From Babesia bigemina (Eukaryota), in the NCBI RefSeq assembly GCF_000981445.1, contig NC_027216.1, positions 992,001 to 1,056,000 on the forward strand: 64,000 bases of DNA, read 5' to 3'. Positions 905-64,000 of the stretch are shown here, in pieces; the stretch's first letter is position 1; every line of letters begins with the position of its first letter. The notes under the pieces are model-generated. The model ran no database searches and had not been told where the DNA came from. It saw only the letters and a program-made list of their open reading frames with translations. The position numbers and the translations under genes were made by a program.

Positions 905-1882
905 CGAGTTCGTGCTTTATTCGTAATTCAATCAACTAATGAAATCCATCCGTGGCCACAGGAACTACATCTGGACTATCTGCTACCATGGGAGTTAAAT
1001 TCAGAATATGGATGCTAAAGCCATCCTGAAGCGGCAACAACCATAAAACGCTCTGTATTACCGGCTATAGCTTTTGTTCTTCATCACTACGATACCGCTG
1101 GTTGTATTTTTAGCGTTCAAAACCTTACTCATGAAGGTAAAAGCTGCGGCTATTGTGCCTGTCATCAACAGTGTGCTGACTACGTAGCCAGGTCCGATGT
1201 TCGGCTTTTCGAAACTATAGACTAACCGTGCTGTTGGTTGCAGGTTCCACGTCTAGTCATTGACTTCATCCGTGCTACCACCCAGCTGGGTTGAGAGTAT
1301 CATTCATGGTCTCGCGATGACTTATGTCCCTGTCCACCAACTCACACATTAGACAAGGTATCAATTGGCAACATGCCGACTAGACGATCTCTTTTACCTT
1401 AGACTACCTCACCGAATCATCATACCGTACAAACTACTAAGCAATTAACTGAGCACTTCGTGGAAGTTCACGTCGAGACCACGGACCCCTGCCTACAAGG
1501 CTGCGGTGTTAAGTCCTCATCGTATGAGTTGTTCAAGCCTGACAAACCCAAAATCTACGATGATAACGGAGAAGACAGCGGCCGCAAAATTGATATTCAG
1601 GCTGCCAATGAAGCAGCGTTCTACTGCCCCCCTCCGTACGTACTTGACCCACCCAACTGCTTTCACCAAGTGTTAGTGGAGGGTGAAGCAAAGAGCGTAA
1701 TCGATATAAGCAAGTCGCTGATTGAATCAGCATCCAACCACTTCGTCATCTTGAAGTTCGACAGAGAACTCGTAGGACCTGGCGAAACGCTGCGCCAGAC
1801 CCAGCCGTTGGAGTGTCGCTGCGTCACCATCAAGGGCATCGTCCTGTCTACCATCCACATCGAGCATTACTACGCCAAGTAA
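905..1882 (+). pseudogene. Broken paralog of the 6-Cys/s48-45-like gene at 59541-62417; only the last domain is intact
   Basis: ORF 1460-1882 (TDPCLQGCG...LFKP...AAFYCPPPYVLDPPNCF...LECRCVTIKGIVLSTI) is a close paralog of the C-terminus of 59541-62417. There is a weaker upstream remnant (..YLLPW, ~905-1000), and the 3' flank is also conserved between the copies. Confidence 0.8.
1151..1350 (-). mobile_element. Short 3'-terminal remnant (copy A) of the putative RLE non-LTR retroelement
   Basis: 1169-1253 closely matches 58216-58301 (identical 24-nt and 20-nt blocks). Minus-strand translation ELVDRDISHRETMNDTLNPAG aligns with KIVMRDMKPREDYDSVEDPGA of copy C. Confidence 0.6.
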
Positions 1883-2935: not shown

Positions 2936-2949
2936 TGTCCATTTAGGGT

Positions 2950-3687
2950 TTGCATTTTGTAAAATGCTCACCAGGGGGTCTCATTGGAAGCTGGGACTCC
3001 GCCTACTACACTAACCCCTTCGACCCGTGCAACCTGTGCCACAAGAGCAGGATCAGGATGGGATTCAAGGAGACAGACTTACCAAGTAGTCAACAAACTG
3101 GCAGCATCCTTTCCACCATCCTCACTTTCTGCTGCGGCGGTAGTGACCCTTTGCTGACATTGTCTGCCTACCTCAATTGCTTAACCAGGCTGACGCCGAG
3201 TACCACCGGGGAGCTGGTCTCGTACTTCCACAATTTTGGTGTCGAGTTGCACGGTTATGCTTTGAAGTCGTTGTCTCCACTGGGCATCTCTCTTTCCAAT
3301 TCACACCCCAACTGCCCCGACTGGGACCGTCTTGATGGCACCGACCTCAAAGATCTCCGTGGCATCCGTGGTTCCGAGTCTCTCAACTCAACGCATGACC
3401 ATCTGAAGAGTCCACATAAGCAATTTGGAGACAACTTGGGTCATTTACATCGCCATCCACAATTGTTGCCAACTATCTACCATTCGCATGCCCTCTACCC
3501 CCTCGTCTTTGACTACACGATTTTTCACTTCTTGAATGTTCTGCCATGTTCCCAAAAGTTTCGACTCCCAAGGCGTCCTACTTCATTCACGTCACGACAA
3601 TACTCGTTCACTGGAAGAGGATACTCCTACCTTGCTACGACATCGACTGCTTCAATGACCCCATGGGCAAACATTGTTACATCGTAA
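2950..3687 (+). pseudogene. Fragment of a ves1/VESA1-like variant surface antigen gene
   Basis: PFDPCNLCHKSRIRMGF, DPLLTLSAYLNCLTRLTPSTTGELVSYFHNFG and HPNCPDWDRL are typical internal VESA-like segments. There is no ATG start, and homology is lost toward the 3' end. Confidence 0.7.
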
Positions 3688-3924: not shown

Positions 3925-4290
3925 GGAGCGCCATGCTGGGTTTGGGAATGGGCAATCATCCGGGTGGGTGTACAAAATTTGTATACTTGTTTGGGTTGCT
4001 ATAAGCGACGTTTTGCGTCTTCATACGAATTTTTGTAAAGCTGCGTCTCGATTCAGTGTCGTAGATCACAGAGGCATGTGTTAGCGCATTAGCATTGTAG
4101 ACATACGGTTGGAAGTTGTTGGACCGAACTGGCGGAATCACCTTCCGTTAGAATTCATATCAGCCATATTGGCATAAAGTAACATTGTATGGGAACGTAG
4201 GCAACCGAAGTTCAGGAATTCTCACGTTCATTGGGACAACAGAACCCAGGATTCTTTCAGGCTGATTCGCCTTGGCGTGGAGCCACAGGG
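3925..4290 (+). mobile_element. Old diverged remnant (copy B), inverted homolog of 58300-58650
   Basis: 4131-4226 is the reverse-complement homolog of ~58343-58440 (ttcctgaacttcggtt; ggaaggtgattccgcca). Translation AIIRVGVQNLY...ELAESPSVRIHI weakly parallels TIVEIGITNQY...DLGISDRMEAHI of copy C. Confidence 0.5.
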
Positions 4291-5048: not shown

Positions 5049-6035
5049 ATGGTGTACACTTCGTTGACTGACATCCCTCGTAACCTTAAAGAAGGTATTG
5101 ACTGGTTGTTGGCCGTGAAGGGAGCCGATGCTGAAAAGAACTTAGCGGCCATGGGCGCTGCCCTATACGACTTTCTCGTAGACAAGCCTGTAGGCTTCAC
5201 GGAGGTGCCAGCTCTCGAGAATGTTAAGCTTATTTCGAAAGAGTTCCTGGAGCGACAGGAATTTAAGGACATGTGGCCTGCAAACGAGCTGCTGGGGAGA
5301 TTCAACAACCATGTGAAGACACAAAACATAGACCACCTTAAGTACCCGTTTCCCATAAACGACAGCGATTTTTCGAATGTCGTGCGTGCCAGGCGTGCCG
5401 TACCTGAAAAAATCGCAGAGGACCTAGGTAGGATTGTGGATGGTTGCGAGAGCTTCCTGGAGCATATCGTACTCCCTGAGCAGTATTTATCTGCTTATAA
5501 TTCAGAAGCAACTTGGAAGAAATCATGTTCGGAAAAGCCGGAAGATTGCGCAGTGGTACTTGTGGGTATTGCGCCAATGTTGTACGCAGGACTGCGTTCT
5601 TTGAAGGTCGCGTGCGACAATGAACGCCTAGGTGGGGTACCAGGGGCTAAGGCGATGAGCAGTTTGGGAAGTGTACTGTTGGCTGATGGTTACCAGGAAA
5701 AGCAATGGCCCACTGCAATGACCCCTTCATATGTCGCTAAGGCGTTGGAAGGTGTGAGTCATGAGGTGTTGGTCACGCTCTACGACTTCGCTGGATTCTG
5801 GGCTTTCTATGGATTGCATGACCCCAACAATGTTCCAGCTGTAAAATCTGGCGAGCTTGACAAGGACGCACAGGAGTTTATTGACTTCTACGTCAACATG
5901 AAGCCCATTAACCCTCCCAAGAAGAAGTTGCAGTTCATTAAGTCGCCCAGCACATACACTGCCACCGGATCGAACAACATGTATTACCCCTGGCTGCCAA
6001 CAGTGTTGGATATGGGTGATACTGTCCCACTTTAA
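5049..6035 (+). CDS. Short ves-related protein (VESA N-terminal-like domain only; ves2-like)
   Basis: Starts MVYTSLTDIPRNLKEGIDWL, the typical ves-family N-terminus, and carries an SEATW..SC...PEDCAVVLVGIAPMLYAGL motif. Single exon, 328 aa, no C-terminal TM segment. Confidence 0.8.
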   Translation: MVYTSLTDIPRNLKEGIDWLLAVKGADAEKNLAAMGAALYDFLVDKPVGFTEVPALENVKLISKEFLERQEFKDMWPANELLGRFNNHVKTQNIDHLKYPFPINDSDFSNVVRARRAVPEKIAEDLGRIVDGCESFLEHIVLPEQYLSAYNSEATWKKSCSEKPEDCAVVLVGIAPMLYAGLRSLKVACDNERLGGVPGAKAMSSLGSVLLADGYQEKQWPTAMTPSYVAKALEGVSHEVLVTLYDFAGFWAFYGLHDPNNVPAVKSGELDKDAQEFIDFYVNMKPINPPKKKLQFIKSPSTYTATGSNNMYYPWLPTVLDMGDTVPL

Positions 6036-6229
6036 TGCGCCTCATCGTCTGCCGTGTCTTTGTAAGACTGCGGGATGTATTCTTTAACGCTTTTATTAAT
6101 AAATGTTGATATATGTCCAATCTGTCATCCCCTCTGCCCATTGTTTTGAACCACTAATCGGTTTACCTAACAAGCAATCTGGTAGGTAAGGTCGTAGACG
6201 CATTAAGACAGCGTATTAGTGGCCTATAT

Positions 6230-6735
6230 CTATGAGTCAGTGCAGCGACCCGGCATCGCAGTAAACCGTGGATATGCCTGATACCATCTGGATGTCTGAG
6301 GAACACCGTCACTATCGTGGAGATAGGAATCACCAATCAATACAACCTAGTGGATACGGAGAAGTTCAAGAAGCAGAAGTAGGCAGACCTTATCGAGGAC
6401 CTCAAGGCGCGACAGTTCAACCAGCAGACCAAGATTTGGGTTATCCCCTACGTTATGACGTGGGAGGGAATAGTGACAAAGGAGCACAGCAAGTACAGAC
6501 GGGACCTGGGCATATCGGATCGCATGGAAGCCCACATACAAAGGGTAGTGATCCAAGAAACACATAAAATAGTGATGAGGGACATGAAACCAAGAGAAGA
6601 CTACGATTCTGTAGAAGACCCTGGTGCCCAAACTTGATGGACACCCGCATGGATGACACCAGTTACGATCGGCAACGGACCGATGTGGAACCCGCAGCCA
6701 GCACCAACGTGAGGCGCAGGCATGGTAAGGTTAAA
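6230..6735 (+). mobile_element. Best-preserved RLE endonuclease remnant of a non-LTR retrotransposon (copy C), pseudogenised
   Basis: MPDTIWMSE (6274-6300), then a +1 frameshift, then NTVTIVEIGITNQYNLVDTEKFKKQK*(TAG 6380-6382)ADLIEDL...WVIPYVMTWEGIVTKEHSKYRRDLGISDRMEAHIQ. This fits the PD..E..KxxKY RLE pattern. Confidence 0.75.
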
Positions 6736-7043
6736 AATCTGCCGTAGTTCTGCTAAGTCCACATATCGTTATACTAAGCGCTAATTGCTCTAACATGTCT
6801 AAAAAATATGCAAACATATCCGACCCAGTAATAAGCTGCAAAAGGTTAAGCGAAGCAGTTGTGAAGGTATGCCGGTACCCGAATGGCAAAAAGATGGGGC
6901 TTTGGATGCAATATATAACCACCCGGCAACATCCCAACAGAGTATTGTTGCAAACATTACATAATACCGACAATTATGTCACAATTAGAGCTGAACGTTA
7001 ATATATGTATATGGTTTAGCGCTTTGTCGTGTTCAATATAGTC

Positions 7044-58190: not shown

Positions 58191-58650
58191 TTATTATTAT
58201 GGTGTCTGTCTTTTACAGTGTGCTCTGACTACATGGCCAGGTCCGATGTTCGGCTTTTCAGGGATATATACTAAAGGTGCTGTTGGTTGCAGGTTCACGT
58301 CAGGCAGACCTATGTAACCCTTGAATTCTGTACCGGTGTAACCGTCGGGATTCCTGAACTTCGGTTTCCCGCATTACCATATAGCGTTTAATCATGTCAA
58401 TGTAACCAGATTTGAATTCCGATGGAAGGTGATTCCGCCACCTTCTCACCGCATCCGTGTGCCACGCTGGTAATGTAATAGTAACTGTCTGTGCGCGCTA
58501 CGGTGCGAGATTAAGGTGCTGAAGAGTCACATGGATTTGCCAGCCGACACAAAATATTACATCATATAGATACTCTAACAATCACTCGCATTTCGTGAAT
58601 TCACCCGGCGGATGGCCCAACGCCTCTCCCATGCTGCCGACTCCGGCAGC
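58191..58650 (-). mobile_element. Retroelement remnant (copy D), ending in a short TAA-repeat tail
   Basis: 3' part matches 1169-1253 and 5' part matches inverted 3925-4290; ends ...cacactgtaaaagacagacaccataataataa in element sense. Confidence 0.55.
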
Positions 58651-58720: not shown

Positions 58721-59235
58721 TATTATTATGTTCTCTCATCTTATAGTGTGCTATCTGGCTACATGTGACTTGTGTTACTGTTAAGTTTACCAAGGCTACC
58801 GCCTCACTCTGAAACCGGTTGCGGGATCCACGTCGGTCCATTGCCGATCGTCACTGGTGCCATCCATGCGGGCGTCTATCAAGTTTGGGGTAGAGGTTAG
58901 TTGGCCGGGTCATTATCATCAATAGGTATCACGTTACTCATCGCAGCGTACGGATTTGTAGCTCTAACATCGCGTTGGATGTGGGAATATATGCGATCGG
59001 AGATGCCAAGAGCTAGTAGATGCATATTATACTGTCGCTCCACAATCCATTTCCACGTCACAACATTTGGTACAACCATGGGCATCGTCTTATCCTTTAA
59101 AAGGCATTGGTACCTTTCACGCTTCTATGGCATCGTCTCCACAACGTTATATGCGCTGTAAATCGCCACATCGAGAATGGCGATAGCATTGCGATGATAA
59201 TGTATCGCCAATGATGGGTGTCTTGCAGAGGAGAA
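58721..59235 (-). mobile_element. Retroelement RLE remnant (copy E), homolog of copy C
   Basis: Single minus frame: RHPSLAIHYHRNAIAILDVAIYSAYNVVETMP*KRERYQCLLKD..VVPNVVTWKWIV..LGISDRIYSHIQR. 58817-58889 matches 6627-6699 at 65/73 nt (manual count). Confidence 0.7.
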
Positions 59236-59540: not shown

Positions 59541-62417
59541 ATGGCGCAATGTATGAGAGTCCAGTTGGCAATTTGCGCTATAGTTCTGCAGCTTATTGGA
59601 TTCATAGGCGCAGTGGAATATGGTTTCATTAATAATATGAGTTCTTTGGGTGCCAATCCCCTAGTTGTATACCACATAAACATGGATGAAATTGGGATAG
59701 CAACTCTGACATGCCCACGCCAAGTCAACGGAACTGAGTACGTATGGAATCCCCAACCAACAGCTGATCACGACGTCAGTCTCAAAACCTATGTGATTGA
59801 AGACGGTAAATTTCACTTCGTCCCTTTTTCAAAGGTAGTGGTCACCGAAGCACCACGCCCATATGTTCGGAAAGTGTCAAAGGAGTCGCAAACAGACTTG
59901 CATATCGATCTAATGGATGACGATATATATGCCATTACTGAAGAACGTTTAGTATTCATATGTGGTCCAAGGGATTTGGTCTTGACAGATGCTCTGCAAG
60001 GCCAACTTGCTCGCCTACCGGAGATTTATGAAACGGATATTTATTCATGGGATTCAACCACGCCATTGATTGAAGAAATAGCTAAGATAGGAATAAGCCT
60101 GGGTGTAATATTCTTGCACAGAGGCCTTAATCATCAATTACTGCAAGGCTGTGGAAGTCGTCCCTCGAAACTCTTTGCTCGAGATAATGACGTGACTGTA
60201 GACCCTATCACTGGCACACGTTCTTGTGTAGTAGATCCAATGTCGACATTACGCACTGGGTTCGTTTGCAAAGGCAGAATAGAACCGAACGATTGCATGA
60301 AATACCTCCTGTACGAAGACAGAGTGGTAACTGCTCCTCGACCATATTCGTATCGTTATTTTAATACCCATAAGCCTTGGGTGGTAGCTAGATATTTTAA
60401 TGACGTAGCATTACCCCGTTTCAACGGCGAATGTCGATGCATAGATCCTAAGACTGGTCACGTGAAAGCAAGGATGGAGATTCGTTGGAAAACTGAATAC
60501 GTTTGTGACATAGCTAGCATGATTGTTCGTAACAGGTTGAAGCCTATTAGTGGGCCGTGGTGTTCAGTAATGCTACATCCGGGTGCTACGTTGACCATTA
60601 AGTTGCCAAAACAGACAGACAAGTCGGCTGCTACCGGCGAAGAATACGAAGAAGACGTTGACGATATTGACTATGATCCTTCGACAGTTCCATTTTCGCA
60701 ACTTCCATCTACCCACGCATACGAAAGTGAATTCAAGCCGGACACGGAGTTGACGCTACGCCAAATACAAACGATTTATGACATCAATGATTACGACGAA
60801 ATCGTGACCAACAAAGCGTTCACTGGCGACGTGCTCGAGGTAGATATTTCACAAATGGAGAGAGGAGAGGTTAAGCTGAAGTACCATACGGGCAGACCTC
60901 TTGCATTACGAAGTGGATACAATTCGTTCTTATATCATTGGACATTCATATCTAGGAACGAATACGTTCTAGAAAAGATACGCGCTGTGGTGAACGTCTC
61001 ATTTGCGCCTACTTATCGCTACAATATTATTGGTTGTGACCGATGGAGGCCAGGTATGTTTGATCCGGCAAATGACGTTGGCTCTCTTACAATTAGAAAC
61101 ATGCGGAATGGTATAGGGAAAATAGCTGAATGGCTGTTAGATGTCATGAGTGGCGAGGAACAAGCGGGTATTCAATGCCAACCCAATGAGGAGCTGTTTC
61201 CAAACAATTGTGAGTCCACAGGATACGATCTTTCCTCCAATCAGGTTGCGCCATTCCCTACATCTGTGCGCAATGTCACACTTTACCCCGTTCGAGGATT
61301 TCAGGTATTCGAGATGAGCTTCCAAAATGTGCCTGTCAGTCACGCTTGCAGTTGTGTCGATGAACATGGATACGAGACATCTAGGCTAATTTTGAGATCC
61401 AACCGTCGTGAGGAGTATGAGTATACAGTAAGTCGTGAAGAGGCAAATCAAAGGTTGCTGCCCTACTCATTACTGCCCTGGACCGAGGTGGCTTTCTTAC
61501 ACGGCGATCGCACTCCTATGCAATCAATTAAGCTACACAACACACCCCATAGACCTATGAAACTACATTCGGGCACAGTATTATCCATGCGGTGTGTTAT
61601 GTACCACGCATTGTACAACGGTGAGAATAACGCTGCCGCAATGCCTACCTGGTTACCAGATTATCCTGGATTTAACCATTACAAAATATATACTACCGCA
61701 GAAGGAGATAGGTTAATTAAAAGGCCACACGACGAGAGTATAGCTGGCACAAGACGTGGATTCCAAGTCACGCTGTCAGAATACACAGAAGAATATAGTG
61801 ATTTGCTAATCAAATCCAACAGTGGCTCAATTTTGGTATCCAGGGATCCAGATCACTCGGAATACGTGCCCATGACATTCGTTTGTGGTAAGGAGATTTC
61901 AGAATCAGATTTTGATCAAAGCAACGATAACGCAGCTGCAGCTGCCATTCCCCCACCTGTAGCACTATTAGAGGAATACACGTGGAACGTAGTTCAAATT
62001 GACGTAGAGATGACGGACCCATACATGCAAGGGTGCGGAATTACTGACTCAAGAGATACTCTATTCAAGCCCGAGACACCCAAACTCTACAGCTCCATCA
62101 TACGACACCCTCGCGGCTGCAAGATCGACATTCAGACTGCGGGTGAGGCGGCGTTCTACTGCCCAGCACCGTACGTCCTGGACCCACCCAACTGCTTCGA
62201 CCAGGTCTCCGTGAACGGTGAAGTGAAGAACCTCAGCGACATCAGCCAGTCTTTGGTGGCTTCTCGAACTAAGCACTTCGTTACCTTGCGGTTCGACAGT
62301 GAACTCATTGGACCCGGGGAAAAGCTGCGCCAGACCCCGCCACTTGAATGCCGCTGCGTCACCGTCAAAGGCATCGTCCTCTCCACCATCCAGATTGGGA
62401 ACTACTACAACAAGTAA
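59541..62417 (+). CDS. Secreted Cys-rich protein with several s48/45 (6-Cys)-like domains, multicopy family
   Basis: N-terminal signal peptide; repeated GC...C...(F/I)xC....PxxC...CxC modules (e.g. MQGCG..CKIDI..FYCPAPYVLDPPNCFDQV..LECRC); paralog fragment at 1460-1882. Confidence 0.75.
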   Translation: MAQCMRVQLAICAIVLQLIGFIGAVEYGFINNMSSLGANPLVVYHINMDEIGIATLTCPRQVNGTEYVWNPQPTADHDVSLKTYVIEDGKFHFVPFSKVVVTEAPRPYVRKVSKESQTDLHIDLMDDDIYAITEERLVFICGPRDLVLTDALQGQLARLPEIYETDIYSWDSTTPLIEEIAKIGISLGVIFLHRGLNHQLLQGCGSRPSKLFARDNDVTVDPITGTRSCVVDPMSTLRTGFVCKGRIEPNDCMKYLLYEDRVVTAPRPYSYRYFNTHKPWVVARYFNDVALPRFNGECRCIDPKTGHVKARMEIRWKTEYVCDIASMIVRNRLKPISGPWCSVMLHPGATLTIKLPKQTDKSAATGEEYEEDVDDIDYDPSTVPFSQLPSTHAYESEFKPDTELTLRQIQTIYDINDYDEIVTNKAFTGDVLEVDISQMERGEVKLKYHTGRPLALRSGYNSFLYHWTFISRNEYVLEKIRAVVNVSFAPTYRYNIIGCDRWRPGMFDPANDVGSLTIRNMRNGIGKIAEWLLDVMSGEEQAGIQCQPNEELFPNNCESTGYDLSSNQVAPFPTSVRNVTLYPVRGFQVFEMSFQNVPVSHACSCVDEHGYETSRLILRSNRREEYEYTVSREEANQRLLPYSLLPWTEVAFLHGDRTPMQSIKLHNTPHRPMKLHSGTVLSMRCVMYHALYNGENNAAAMPTWLPDYPGFNHYKIYTTAEGDRLIKRPHDESIAGTRRGFQVTLSEYTEEYSDLLIKSNSGSILVSRDPDHSEYVPMTFVCGKEISESDFDQSNDNAAAAAIPPPVALLEEYTWNVVQIDVEMTDPYMQGCGITDSRDTLFKPETPKLYSSIIRHPRGCKIDIQTAGEAAFYCPAPYVLDPPNCFDQVSVNGEVKNLSDISQSLVASRTKHFVTLRFDSELIGPGEKLRQTPPLECRCVTVKGIVLSTIQIGNYYNK

Positions 62418-63352
62418 CAAGTAGCTCAGATTTGGTCACTCTTTTGGCAATGAACCACTTTAATTGTCATTGTTCATGTTGGTCGATCTGGTGGTTTGTG
62501 TCACGCGTGAGAGAATTGCTTTGGGTAGAGTGTTGCGATTATAATTGCCAGTCTAACGACATATTCTTGTGTTGTCGTAGCTTTTTGTAACTAGCGTGAA
62601 TGGCCATGGGCCCGGTGAAGACCGTACTGTGGAATTACATGTCACAACCACTTAGTTGGGCACTGTCTACCGCAGGCATTAGGAAGATGCAACTTAGAGG
62701 TTTGCATCTCCGTTCGCATTTTGAAACCTTAACAATGCCCTTAACACACGACAAAGAGCAATACGTGGTACCTTGAACGGGACTTCACTGAGCCCCCAAT
62801 TTGGGTGAGCAATTACTGCGGCGGTGCCTGAGCACGTTGGTCGACCGCTGGGAGTGGGTGGCTAGACCGTGTGGATTTCACCCTATTTAGGCGAATCTCG
62901 GTCATTCTTTGCCTATGTATGAGTTAATCTTCGGTGTGGTGGCATTTATCGTCAGCATCGTCATAAGTCTCGAGGTCGTAACCCCAGAATGCACCCTAGC
63001 AGAGGCTTTGAGGGGCGCCCCGCAAACATGGCCACCCACTTATTAGTTACCCCGCAGGAGTTGCTACGCAAGTGCGCACAATGCCAGTCTATGTCGGGTA
63101 TCCACATTTTCAGAGTTTGAGTGGAAGTGACTGCAATTTGATGGAGATTATGCTGGCACCATAACCAGTCATAGTTTAGTTAACCGTGATTAGCAAGAAC
63201 GTGCAGGAGCAGCCAGCATTGAAAGCACGCTTACGAGAGCGTACCTTGAGAGCAGCCGGGTTGTGTATCTCTACCTGAAGACGGTACTTTGAGGTTCAGG
63301 TACACTGCTAATTTTTGTCCGCGGCAGTGCTTTTGAAACCGTCACGTGCAAG

Positions 63353-64000
63353 ATGGCTGTGTCAGCAGCAGAGAATGAACAAACCTATCAGGCAGTAAGT
63401 GATTCTACGGACTGCAATAGTCATGCGAAACACAACGAGGATGGGAATGAGGGAATGCTGATGGATATTAGCGAAATGAAGGCAACGGTGGAGGATAAGA
63501 TGGAAACGAGGGAGTCGCTACAGGATATTAACGAAATGAAGGCAACGGTGGAGGATAAGATGGAAACGAGGGAGTCGCTACAGGATATTAACGAAATGAA
63601 GGCAACGGTGGAGGATAAGATGGAAACGAGGGAGTCGCTACAGGATATTAGCGAAATGAAGGCAACGGTGGAGGATAAGATGGAAACGAGGGAGTCGCTA
63701 CAGGATATTAACGAAATGAAGGCAACGGTGGAGGATAAGATGGAAACGAGGGAGTCGCTACAGGATATTAGCGAAATGAAGGCAACGGTGGAGGATAAGA
63801 TGGAAACGAGGGAGTCGCTACAGGATATTAACGAAATGAAGGCAACGGTGGAGGATAAGATGGAAACGAGGGAGTCGCTACAGGATATTAACGAAATGAA
63901 GGCAACGGTGGAGGATAAGATGGAAACGAGGGAGTCGCTACAGGATATGAGGGAAATGATGAAGTTGCTGAAGGATATGAGGGAAATGATGAAGTCGCTG
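63353..64000 (+). CDS. Tandem-repeat protein, 3'-partial; upstream exons are possible
   Basis: Open frame from ATG 63353 to the window end, encoding (D I [N/S] E M K A T V E D K M E T R E S L Q)x8 and then DMREMMKLLK-type units. Confidence 0.7.
   Translation, partial: MAVSAAENEQTYQAVSDSTDCNSHAKHNEDGNEGMLMDISEMKATVEDKMETRESLQDINEMKATVEDKMETRESLQDINEMKATVEDKMETRESLQDISEMKATVEDKMETRESLQDINEMKATVEDKMETRESLQDISEMKATVEDKMETRESLQDINEMKATVEDKMETRESLQDINEMKATVEDKMETRESLQDMREMMKLLKDMREMMKSL
63463..64000. repeat. Coding minisatellite: 8 near-identical 60-bp units followed by 30-bp units
   Basis: Directly visible; the 60-bp units differ at a single A/G position. Confidence 0.98.

What the first reader, a model, noticed from the sequence alone, without database searches (positions are those of the whole stretch)
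6230..6735. Fossil restriction-like endonuclease of a non-LTR retrotransposon in a piroplasm genome
Seen in sequence: repairing one frameshift (~6300) and one stop (TAG 6380) gives PDTIWMSE-NTVTIVEIGITNQYNLVDTEKFKKQK(Y)ADL...VIPYVMTWEGIVTKEH..Y.RDLGI....AHIQ. Established knowledge: RLE-clade LINEs (R2/R4/NeSL/CRE) end in PD..E...KxxKY. From memory, the EVGIT and IIPYVMTWDG.VTK.H signature resembles R4/Dong-like elements such as those of microsporidia. Piroplasms are generally described as lacking transposons. Inference: a LINE family was once active in this lineage, either ancestrally or by horizontal acquisition.
Basis: partly seen in the sequence, partly recalled or inferred. Interest (0 to 1): 0.9.

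Follow-up and report, generated by a model that had tools for sequence, protein, structure and literature searches.

The report
Dead fragment of young Babesia retrotransposon
This is the broken tail end of a jumping gene (a LINE retrotransposon) of the cattle parasite Babesia bigemina; LINE-like elements are already reported in this species, but near-identical intact copies exist elsewhere in the genome, so the family was likely mobile recently, and its closest named relatives outside piroplasms come from microsporidian fungi, which suggests it was likely acquired horizontally.

Summary
Window 6298-6734 (+) is the decayed 3' end of an RLE-type non-LTR retrotransposon. It matches the last 134 aa of an intact 1347-aa Babesia bigemina ORF at 90%. 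That ORF has RT, a CCHC knuckle and the RH/PD/E/K..KY endonuclease motifs, and a fold of the B. ovata homologue matches R2 structures best.

Corrections: the match starts at about 6298, so the 'repaired' PD..WMSE part is unproven. Piroplasms do not lack transposons: LINE-like elements in B. bigemina, B. ovata, B. divergens and T. equi were published in 2022 (PMC9141347). Only this copy is a fossil: 8 accessions encode 1347-aa ORFs 99.7-99.9% alike.

Not found in my literature searches: the piroplasm elements nest among microsporidian elements (100/99). T. equi's element is closer to Vairimorpha's (49%) than to Babesia's (41%), and AU tests reject keeping microsporidia apart (p 0.02 and 0.002). 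An old horizontal transfer is likely; the donor is unproven. A second, older copy lies at 58781-59193 (-).

The parts
6298..6734 (+). 5'-truncated, decayed 3' end of an RLE-type LINE (C-terminal part of the endonuclease, protein tail, short 3' untranslated end)
   Evidence: tblastn 120/134 identical to P0014 residues 1211-1344; contigs of other copies start to fit at 6298 and depth falls after about 6726; similarity to the second copy ends at 6734
6299..6712 (+). ORF remnant, equal to residues 1211-1347 of the intact protein plus its stop; 14 of 134 compared residues differ, two of them stops
6320..6322 (+). Codon for the conserved acidic residue (E of VEIGI) of the PD-(D/E)XK-type site
   Evidence: E or D in 98 of 98 aligned homologues; motif as defined in PMC4838377 passages
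6368..6382 (+). K..KY motif, with TAG at 6380-6382 in place of the conserved Tyr
   Evidence: K, K and Y each in 97 of 98 homologues; contigs of other copies in 3 of 4 runs differ from the window at 6382
6635..6637 (+). Second premature stop (TGA), in the protein tail
6713..6737 (+). About 22-nt 3' untranslated end followed by a run of five A (possible tail remnant); no target-site duplication found
   Evidence: sequence; only two 6-mers are shared between the flanks, neither at the junctions
6277..6282 (+).
   Evidence: 25 nt upstream of the Asn codon, against 30 nt in the intact protein; no supporting alignment
58781..59193 (-). Second, much older copy of the same 3' end, with stops and an 8-codon gap
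   Evidence: 57/136 (42%) identical to P0014; 192/297 nt identical to the first copy
6103..6379 (+). Annotated 71-aa hypothetical gene model BBBOND_0104470, spliced from flank into the element; likely a prediction artefact
   Evidence: P0011 maps to 6103-6201 and 6242-6379
5049..6035 (+). Upstream host gene of a multi-copy family (ves2-like by a recalled N-terminal motif, not confirmed by a call)
   Evidence: ORF; many paralogous contigs; no Pfam hit

Best explanation
The stretch is a dead, 5'-truncated copy of a single-ORF RLE-type LINE of Babesia bigemina whose intact copies likely still transpose, or did so very recently, by target-primed reverse transcription, and whose lineage likely entered piroplasms by an old horizontal transfer from the pool of elements carried by microsporidia. 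Shown: the identity of the fragment; the domain order of the intact ORF (Myb-like W-x19-W segment, RT, CCHC knuckle, RLE); near-identical intact ORFs; nesting of the piroplasm elements among microsporidian ones. Inferred from R2 biochemistry: the RLE nicks DNA, the RT copies the element RNA from its 3' end, and early arrest leaves a 3'-only insert like this one, which then gained stops. Inferred: the insert was later duplicated together with its upstream flank, because a second locus shares the same flank and junction but still has the Tyr. My odds: identity 0.97, recent mobility 0.75, horizontal entry into piroplasms 0.7, microsporidia as the direct donor 0.4.
For: Nine of 10 first hits are Babesia proteins, and the three from B. 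ovata are named RT-domain proteins. The longer-protein search gave the 1347-aa ORF P0014, with RVT_1 at E 5e-30. Four 1347-aa sequences (8 GenBank protein accessions, 4 of them on chromosome-scale contigs) differ by 2-4 residues. Five other T. equi copies are 98.2-98.7% identical to P0073. The motifs are kept in 93-98 of 98 homologues. A model of B. ovata P0013 (pLDDT 90) ranks seven R2 structures first by Foldseek (E 3e-20 to 3e-16) and by VIA (best Z 25.2, rmsd 4.2, 577 aligned; best LINE-1 Z 15.0). Among the 120 listed of 233 hits, 39 carry an organism name: 9 piroplasm, 19 microsporidia, 6 Octopus sinensis, 3 mites, 2 bacterial MAG labels. A branch holding all 6 piroplasm rows and 6 of 8 microsporidian rows has 100/99 support in both careful trees. 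Holding microsporidia apart from piroplasms is rejected (p-AU 0.02; 0.002). T. equi is nearer to V. apis (path 1.51, 49.0%) than to B. bigemina (1.93, 40.8%). A contig of run X1 bridges the 3' junction (6667-6964, 12 differences). P0012 shares the flank and junction.
Against: Mobility was not observed: no empty-versus-filled site, no target-site duplication, and near-identity of copies can be inflated by assembly or gene conversion. The Octopus- and mite-labelled rows may be genuine animal elements or parasite contamination; this was not tested. Transposon proteins of ticks are often unannotated, so their absence from a protein search is weak. The root rests on unnamed outgroups at 27-29% identity, the Babesia stem is long (0.51-0.65), and both AU tests used LG+G4 only. 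The groups were named after the first tree had been seen. Piroplasm monophyly is neither shown nor rejected (p-AU 0.46). Ancient persistence of an RLE lineage across supergroups has been argued for Utopia (PMC4640811 passages).
Confidence: 0.8

Rival explanations
1. The element came from an arthropod (tick or mite) lineage, and microsporidia and piroplasms each picked it up from such hosts.
For: Three mite-labelled and six Octopus-labelled relatives are in the wider clade. Microsporidia exchange transposons with animals (PMC4202319 passages). The nearest Atlas clusters by features are mostly arthropod where the phylum is known, for 4-6 members each.
Against: Mite rows are more distant (32-36%, path 2.6) than microsporidian rows (40-44% for 7 of 8, path 1.65-1.9). 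No tick protein is among the 39 named of 120 listed hits.
Confidence: 0.25
2. The family was inherited vertically from an ancient alveolate or eukaryotic ancestor and lost in most apicomplexans; closeness to microsporidia reflects sparse sampling and slow RT evolution.
For: PMC9141347 offers a single gain plus losses within piroplasms. Utopia is argued to predate the supergroups. The Octopus-labelled rows could come from an apicomplexan parasite of octopus (recalled, untested).
Against: The element evolves fast within Babesia (79% bigemina-ovata, 47-54% bigemina-caballi), yet is 40-50% identical to 7 of 8 microsporidian elements. T. equi is closer to microsporidia than to Babesia. AU tests reject a host-like split.
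Confidence: 0.15
3. The family is extinct, and the near-identical ORFs are assembly duplicates, segmental duplicates or a domesticated RT gene.
For: Four of the 8 accessions are on small unplaced contigs. This very fragment was apparently duplicated with its flank (P0012).
Against: Intact ORFs sit at separate gene numbers on two chromosome-scale contigs. All catalytic motifs are intact. A near-full-length B. ovata copy interrupts a host gene model. T. equi has its own set of 98% alike copies.
Confidence: 0.15
4. It is contamination (cattle, tick or microsporidian DNA) or an ordinary Babesia host gene.
For: B. bigemina assemblies have yielded BovB- and L1-like matches to mammals (PMC13465657 passages).
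Against: The fragment lies between Babesia genes. A contig of another run bridges its 3' junction. Elements of three Babesia species form one clade at 100/100. GC3 is 0.63, against 0.57 for the neighbouring gene. The fold is R2-like, not L1-like.
Confidence: 0.02

Closest known systems
LINE-like TEs of Babesia and Theileria equi (Rodriguez and Makalowski 2022, PMC9141347; models Bova_19, Bdiv_22, Tequ_3)
   Same: Same species distribution (B. bigemina, B. ovata, T. equi); RT-bearing and non-LTR; 0.97% of the B. bigemina genome. Most likely the same family, though I could not compare sequences with their models.
   Different: The Babesia models are classed 'Unknown/LINE' and Bova_19 is only 2078 nt. 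In the full main text I saw no mention of the RLE domain, intact young copies or microsporidian relatives. B. divergens hits were classed 'LINE R2' by MGEScan.
R2 retrotransposons (R2Bm 8gh6, R2Tg 9dou/9nl3, R2Pm 9nl2)
   Same: Single ORF with RT, CCHC knuckle and RLE carrying RH, PD, D/E and K..KY; best structural matches.
   Different: Only 12-16% identity; no N-terminal zinc-finger pattern in P0014; this copy is not in rDNA; Y-V-M-T-W-E-G follows strand 4, and I did not identify R2's RG.W motif.
Microsporidian non-LTR elements (Vairimorpha apis, V. necatrix, Hamiltosporidium, Pancytospora, Enteropsectra); dominant LINEs of Microsporidia sp. MB are labelled Dong-R4 (PMC13174016)
   Same: Closest named non-piroplasm relatives: 40-44% over about 490-725 columns for 7 of 8 rows, with the same N-terminal W-P..RMPR.GW segment.
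   Different: The Babesia ORF is longer (1347 aa against about 1145 aa in unnamed relatives) and host-like in GC. The Dong-R4 label comes from a species not in my tree.
RT-motif gene cluster of B. caballi and B. ovata (PMC10463595)
   Same: Expanded RT genes in the same species; B. caballi proteins join the Babesia clade.
   Different: In the passages read, they are described only as genes with a putative RT motif, not as retrotransposons.

Membership tests
RLE-type non-LTR retrotransposons (R2 group) | Single long ORF with a non-LTR-type RT | tested here: met
   Intact family member of 1347 aa, RVT_1 640-881, YIDD at 818; best PDB sequence hits are LINE-1 and R2. The window copy itself lacks this part.
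RLE-type non-LTR retrotransposons (R2 group) | CX2-3CX7-8HX4C knuckle after the RT | tested here: met
   C1119-X2-C-X7-H-X4-C in P0014; conserved in 93-98 of 98 rows; spacing from PMC5678591 passages
RLE-type non-LTR retrotransposons (R2 group) | C-terminal PD-(D/E)XK-type endonuclease with RH, PD, D/E and K..KY | tested here: met
   R1146-H1147, P1202-D1203, E1218, K1234..K1237-Y1238; 96-98 of 98 rows; the model aligns to R2 chains up to their C-terminal ends. The window copy keeps E and K..K, with a stop at Y.
RLE-type non-LTR retrotransposons (R2 group) | No APE endonuclease, integrase or RNase H | tested here: met
   Only RVT_1 is a strong, shared Pfam match in P0014 and across 21 of 21 relatives; no APE, integrase or RNase H family was listed
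RLE-type non-LTR retrotransposons (R2 group) | Dispersed copies with 5' truncations | tested here: met
   Two 3'-only copies in the window and many partial models on several chromosomes
RLE-type non-LTR retrotransposons (R2 group) | 3' tail and target-site duplication | tested here: inconclusive
   Five A after 6732 in one copy, none in the other; no duplication at the junctions; the copy is decayed and DNA of intact copies was not available
RLE-type non-LTR retrotransposons (R2 group) | Target-primed reverse transcription activity | not testable with these tools
   Needs a biochemical assay
R2 clade proper | N-terminal zinc finger(s) plus Myb | tested here: not met
   Cys positions in the first 560 aa show no C2H2 pattern; a Myb-like W-x19-W segment is visible by eye but has no Pfam hit
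R2 clade proper | Insertion in rDNA | tested here: not met
   Both window copies lie between protein-coding genes
R4/Dong clade | RT phylogeny grouping with R4 and Dong | not testable with these tools
   No named R4 or Dong sequence was returned by any search; circumstantial only (PMC13174016 passages)
NeSL/Utopia | Ulp1-like protease or N-terminal zinc fingers, U2 or spliced-leader target | tested here: inconclusive
   No protease Pfam hit; targets of the intact copies are unknown; no reference in the tree

The most novel reading that the evidence does not exclude
Piroplasms acquired an RLE LINE from microsporidia, a fungus-to-apicomplexan transfer that plausibly took place in a co-infected tick and perhaps happened twice (Babesia and T. 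equi). The element is still mobile in B. bigemina, lands preferentially in and beside the ves/ebh antigen gene families, and supplied the reverse transcriptase that the published retro-origin hypothesis for B. bovis ves1-alpha requires.
Probability: 0.3. Interest if true: 0.75.

Novelty: new member of a known kind. Interest (0 to 1): 0.45.

Why it matters
Apicomplexan genomes were long noted for lacking active transposons despite heavy rearrangement (PMC3176833 passages). The 2022 survey found LINE-like sequence in piroplasms but left its class, activity and origin open. An intact, young RLE family gives a testable source of rearrangement and of reverse transcriptase in Babesia. That bears on the proposal that B. 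bovis ves1-alpha arose by reverse transcription (PMC4066756 section 22). A transfer between microsporidia and an apicomplexan would be a rare cross-supergroup move for a non-LTR element. Compact RLE elements are also of interest as RNA-templated insertion tools. The fragment itself is ordinary junk, and it creates a spurious gene model.

Tried and rejected
No whole genome is held for this window, so copy number, flanks and target sites could not be read from DNA.

Pfam on the fragment gave only Cas9_C below its cut-off (E 0.03); rejected as noise. A single-sequence fold of P0004 was useless (pLDDT 36); it was replaced by an alignment-based fold. The careful mixture-model tree did not finish; its quick version gave the same nesting.

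The metagenome scan returned 80 loci. The 7 close ones (48-61%) are 1.2-4.4 kb contigs with little or no flank, so their hosts could not be told.

Run search: no listed holder is on record as RNA. Run X3 is only guessed to be RNA, so its element contigs are not used as evidence of expression. The 5' junction contig of X1 has only 29 letters on the element side and is not counted as bridging. Finer mapping of the ends from reads was not obtained. The Atlas look-up for the upstream gene did not complete, so its family rests on recall.

Three look-ups of earlier findings were empty. PMC7313128, PMC5660447 and bioRxiv 2025.06.16.659975 passages held nothing on this family.

Full report
Observation. 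It was searched with X at that stop. The best 10 of 10 hits in the first protein search were 3 B. ovata 'reverse transcriptase domain' proteins, 6 B. bigemina hypothetical proteins and 1 unnamed protein. One of them, BBBOND_0104470, maps onto the window itself, which places the window on a 2.54-Mb B. bigemina contig. The representative library gave 249 hits at E up to 0.001.

What it is. Searching longer proteins with a B. ovata homologue gave a 1347-aa B. bigemina ORF. The window matches its residues 1211-1344 at 120 of 134 (score 625 against a shuffled maximum of 55 in 500). The ORF has an RT, a CX2CX7HX4C knuckle and the RH, PD, E and K..KY motifs that define the R2-type endonuclease (PMC4838377 and PMC5678591, passages). 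Each motif residue is kept in 93-98 of 98 aligned homologues. An AlphaFold model of the 670-aa B. ovata homologue (98 sequences, pLDDT 90) matches seven R2 structures ahead of LINE-1 in both searches, over model residues 1-627, which include the endonuclease. The fragment is therefore the 3' end of an RLE LINE. It spans about 6298-6734 and carries two stops. It lacks the RT, the knuckle, RH and probably PD, so it is dead. A second, more decayed copy lies at 58781-59193 on the minus strand (42%).

History of this copy. The model BBBOND_0404960, on another contig, has the same upstream flank and junction but keeps the Tyr. I infer one truncated insertion, later duplicated with its flank, and the stop arising afterwards in this copy. 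A contig from run X1 bridges the 3' junction at 96% identity, so the junction is not an assembly artefact; it could come from a paralogous locus. No target-site duplication was found.

The family is young. Four 1347-aa sequences, covering 8 GenBank accessions of which 4 are on the 2.8- and 3.5-Mb contigs, differ by 2-4 residues. Five other T. equi ORFs of 1258-1314 aa are 98.2-98.7% identical to the T. equi representative. Intact catalytic motifs and near-identity point to recent transposition. Movement was not observed, and assembly or gene conversion could inflate identity.

Origin. The RT-to-RLE search gave 233 hits, of which 120 were listed. Of the listed hits, 39 name an organism: 9 piroplasm, 19 microsporidia, 6 Octopus sinensis, 3 mites and 2 bacterial MAG labels; 81 are unnamed. 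Trees were built on 122 rows (FastTree), on 51 rows that I picked from them by hand, and on the 20 named rows of those 51 plus 6 outgroup rows. All give a Babesia clade (100/100 in the careful trees) and a branch joining it and T. equi with 6 of 8 microsporidian rows (100/99; 17 of 19 in the FastTree), with two Enteropsectra families outside. Forcing microsporidia apart from piroplasms is rejected (p-AU 0.02 and 0.002). Piroplasm monophyly is not rejected (0.46), so one or two entries remain possible. B. bigemina is 79% identical to B. ovata, 47-54% to B. caballi, 41% to T. equi and 40-44% to 7 of 8 microsporidian rows; T. equi is 49% identical to V. apis. An element that changes this fast within Babesia is unlikely to have kept such identity since alveolates and fungi split, so horizontal transfer is the best reading. 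It would be old, as GC3 is host-like. The donor is open: most relatives are unnamed, the animal labels are unverified, tick transposons are poorly annotated, the outgroup is unnamed, and the AU tests used LG+G4 with groups named after the first tree. Microsporidia do occur in hard ticks, at low prevalence (PMC8760655 abstract), which gives a possible meeting place.

Neighbours. I examined 7 Babesia or Babesia-like gene models in which the element is fused to other sequence. [quoted passage not shown] In two B. ovata models the element starts at about the same position of ebh-like paralogues that are only 39% alike. These are predicted, spliced models, so this is a lead for target preference, not a result.

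What is known. PMC9141347 (whole main text; supplement part 1 of 5 plus searched rows; Tables S5 and S6 were not in the held archive) reports LINE-like elements in B. bigemina (0.97% of the genome), B. ovata, B. divergens and T. equi, and none in B. bovis. PMC10463595 (passages) notes RT-gene expansions. So the headline, a LINE in a piroplasm, is already in print. I found no paper that gives the RLE anatomy, intact young copies or a microsporidian link. The searches were made, over open-access full text only; Repbase, Dfam, subscription journals and unseen supplements may hold a name for this family. Other papers seen as passages only: PMC4066756 (plus section 22 part 1), PMC5660447, PMC4202319, PMC13174016, PMC7313128, PMC4640811, PMC3176833, PMC13465657 and bioRxiv 2025.06.16.659975.

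Verdict. It is a member of the RLE non-LTR group, not of the R2 clade proper; R4/Dong is untested. Interest 0.45: the fragment is ordinary and the presence of LINEs is known, but a probably still mobile family of likely horizontal origin in a piroplasm is worth follow-up.

Noticed in passing
window 58781-58889 (-) vs 6627-6734 (+): The last ~110 nt of the two copies are 82% alike, while the whole aligned stretch is only 65% alike; gene conversion or constraint on the element's 3' end is possible.
   Followed up: no
proteins P0019 and P0015 (B. ovata), P0365 (B. bigemina): A near-full-length element splits an ebh-like gene model in B. ovata, and a second paralogue has element sequence from about the same position; hint of a preferred target.
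   Followed up: partly
proteins P0034 vs P0019: B. ovata carries two distinct families of this element, about 1.1 changes per column apart.
   Followed up: partly
window 1151-1253, 1464-2041, 4130-4219 vs 58198-58440, 61996-62574: Both ends of the window are AT-richer islands that share several 73-83% repeats, including 6-Cys (s48/45) gene ends; both LINE fragments sit in these islands.
   Followed up: no
window 2947-3687 (+): 246-aa open frame without a Pfam hit that looks like a fragment of a ves-type gene (recalled resemblance).
   Followed up: no
window 63440-63999: 60-nt tandem repeat inside an open frame that runs off the window end.
   Followed up: no
proteins P0068, P0090, P0304, P0305: Members of this eukaryotic retrotransposon clade are filed under bacterial MAG names (Candidatus Riesia, Turicibacter, Simkania), likely binning contamination.
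   Followed up: no
proteins P0078, P0080, P0087, P0095, P0113, P0116; P0102, P0115, P0121: Octopus sinensis- and mite-labelled relatives fall among microsporidian elements; parasite DNA in those assemblies is possible.
   Followed up: no
proteins P0151, P0152, P0155: Unnamed RLE fragments whose best matches are Babesia elements; they may come from further Babesia species.
   Followed up: partly
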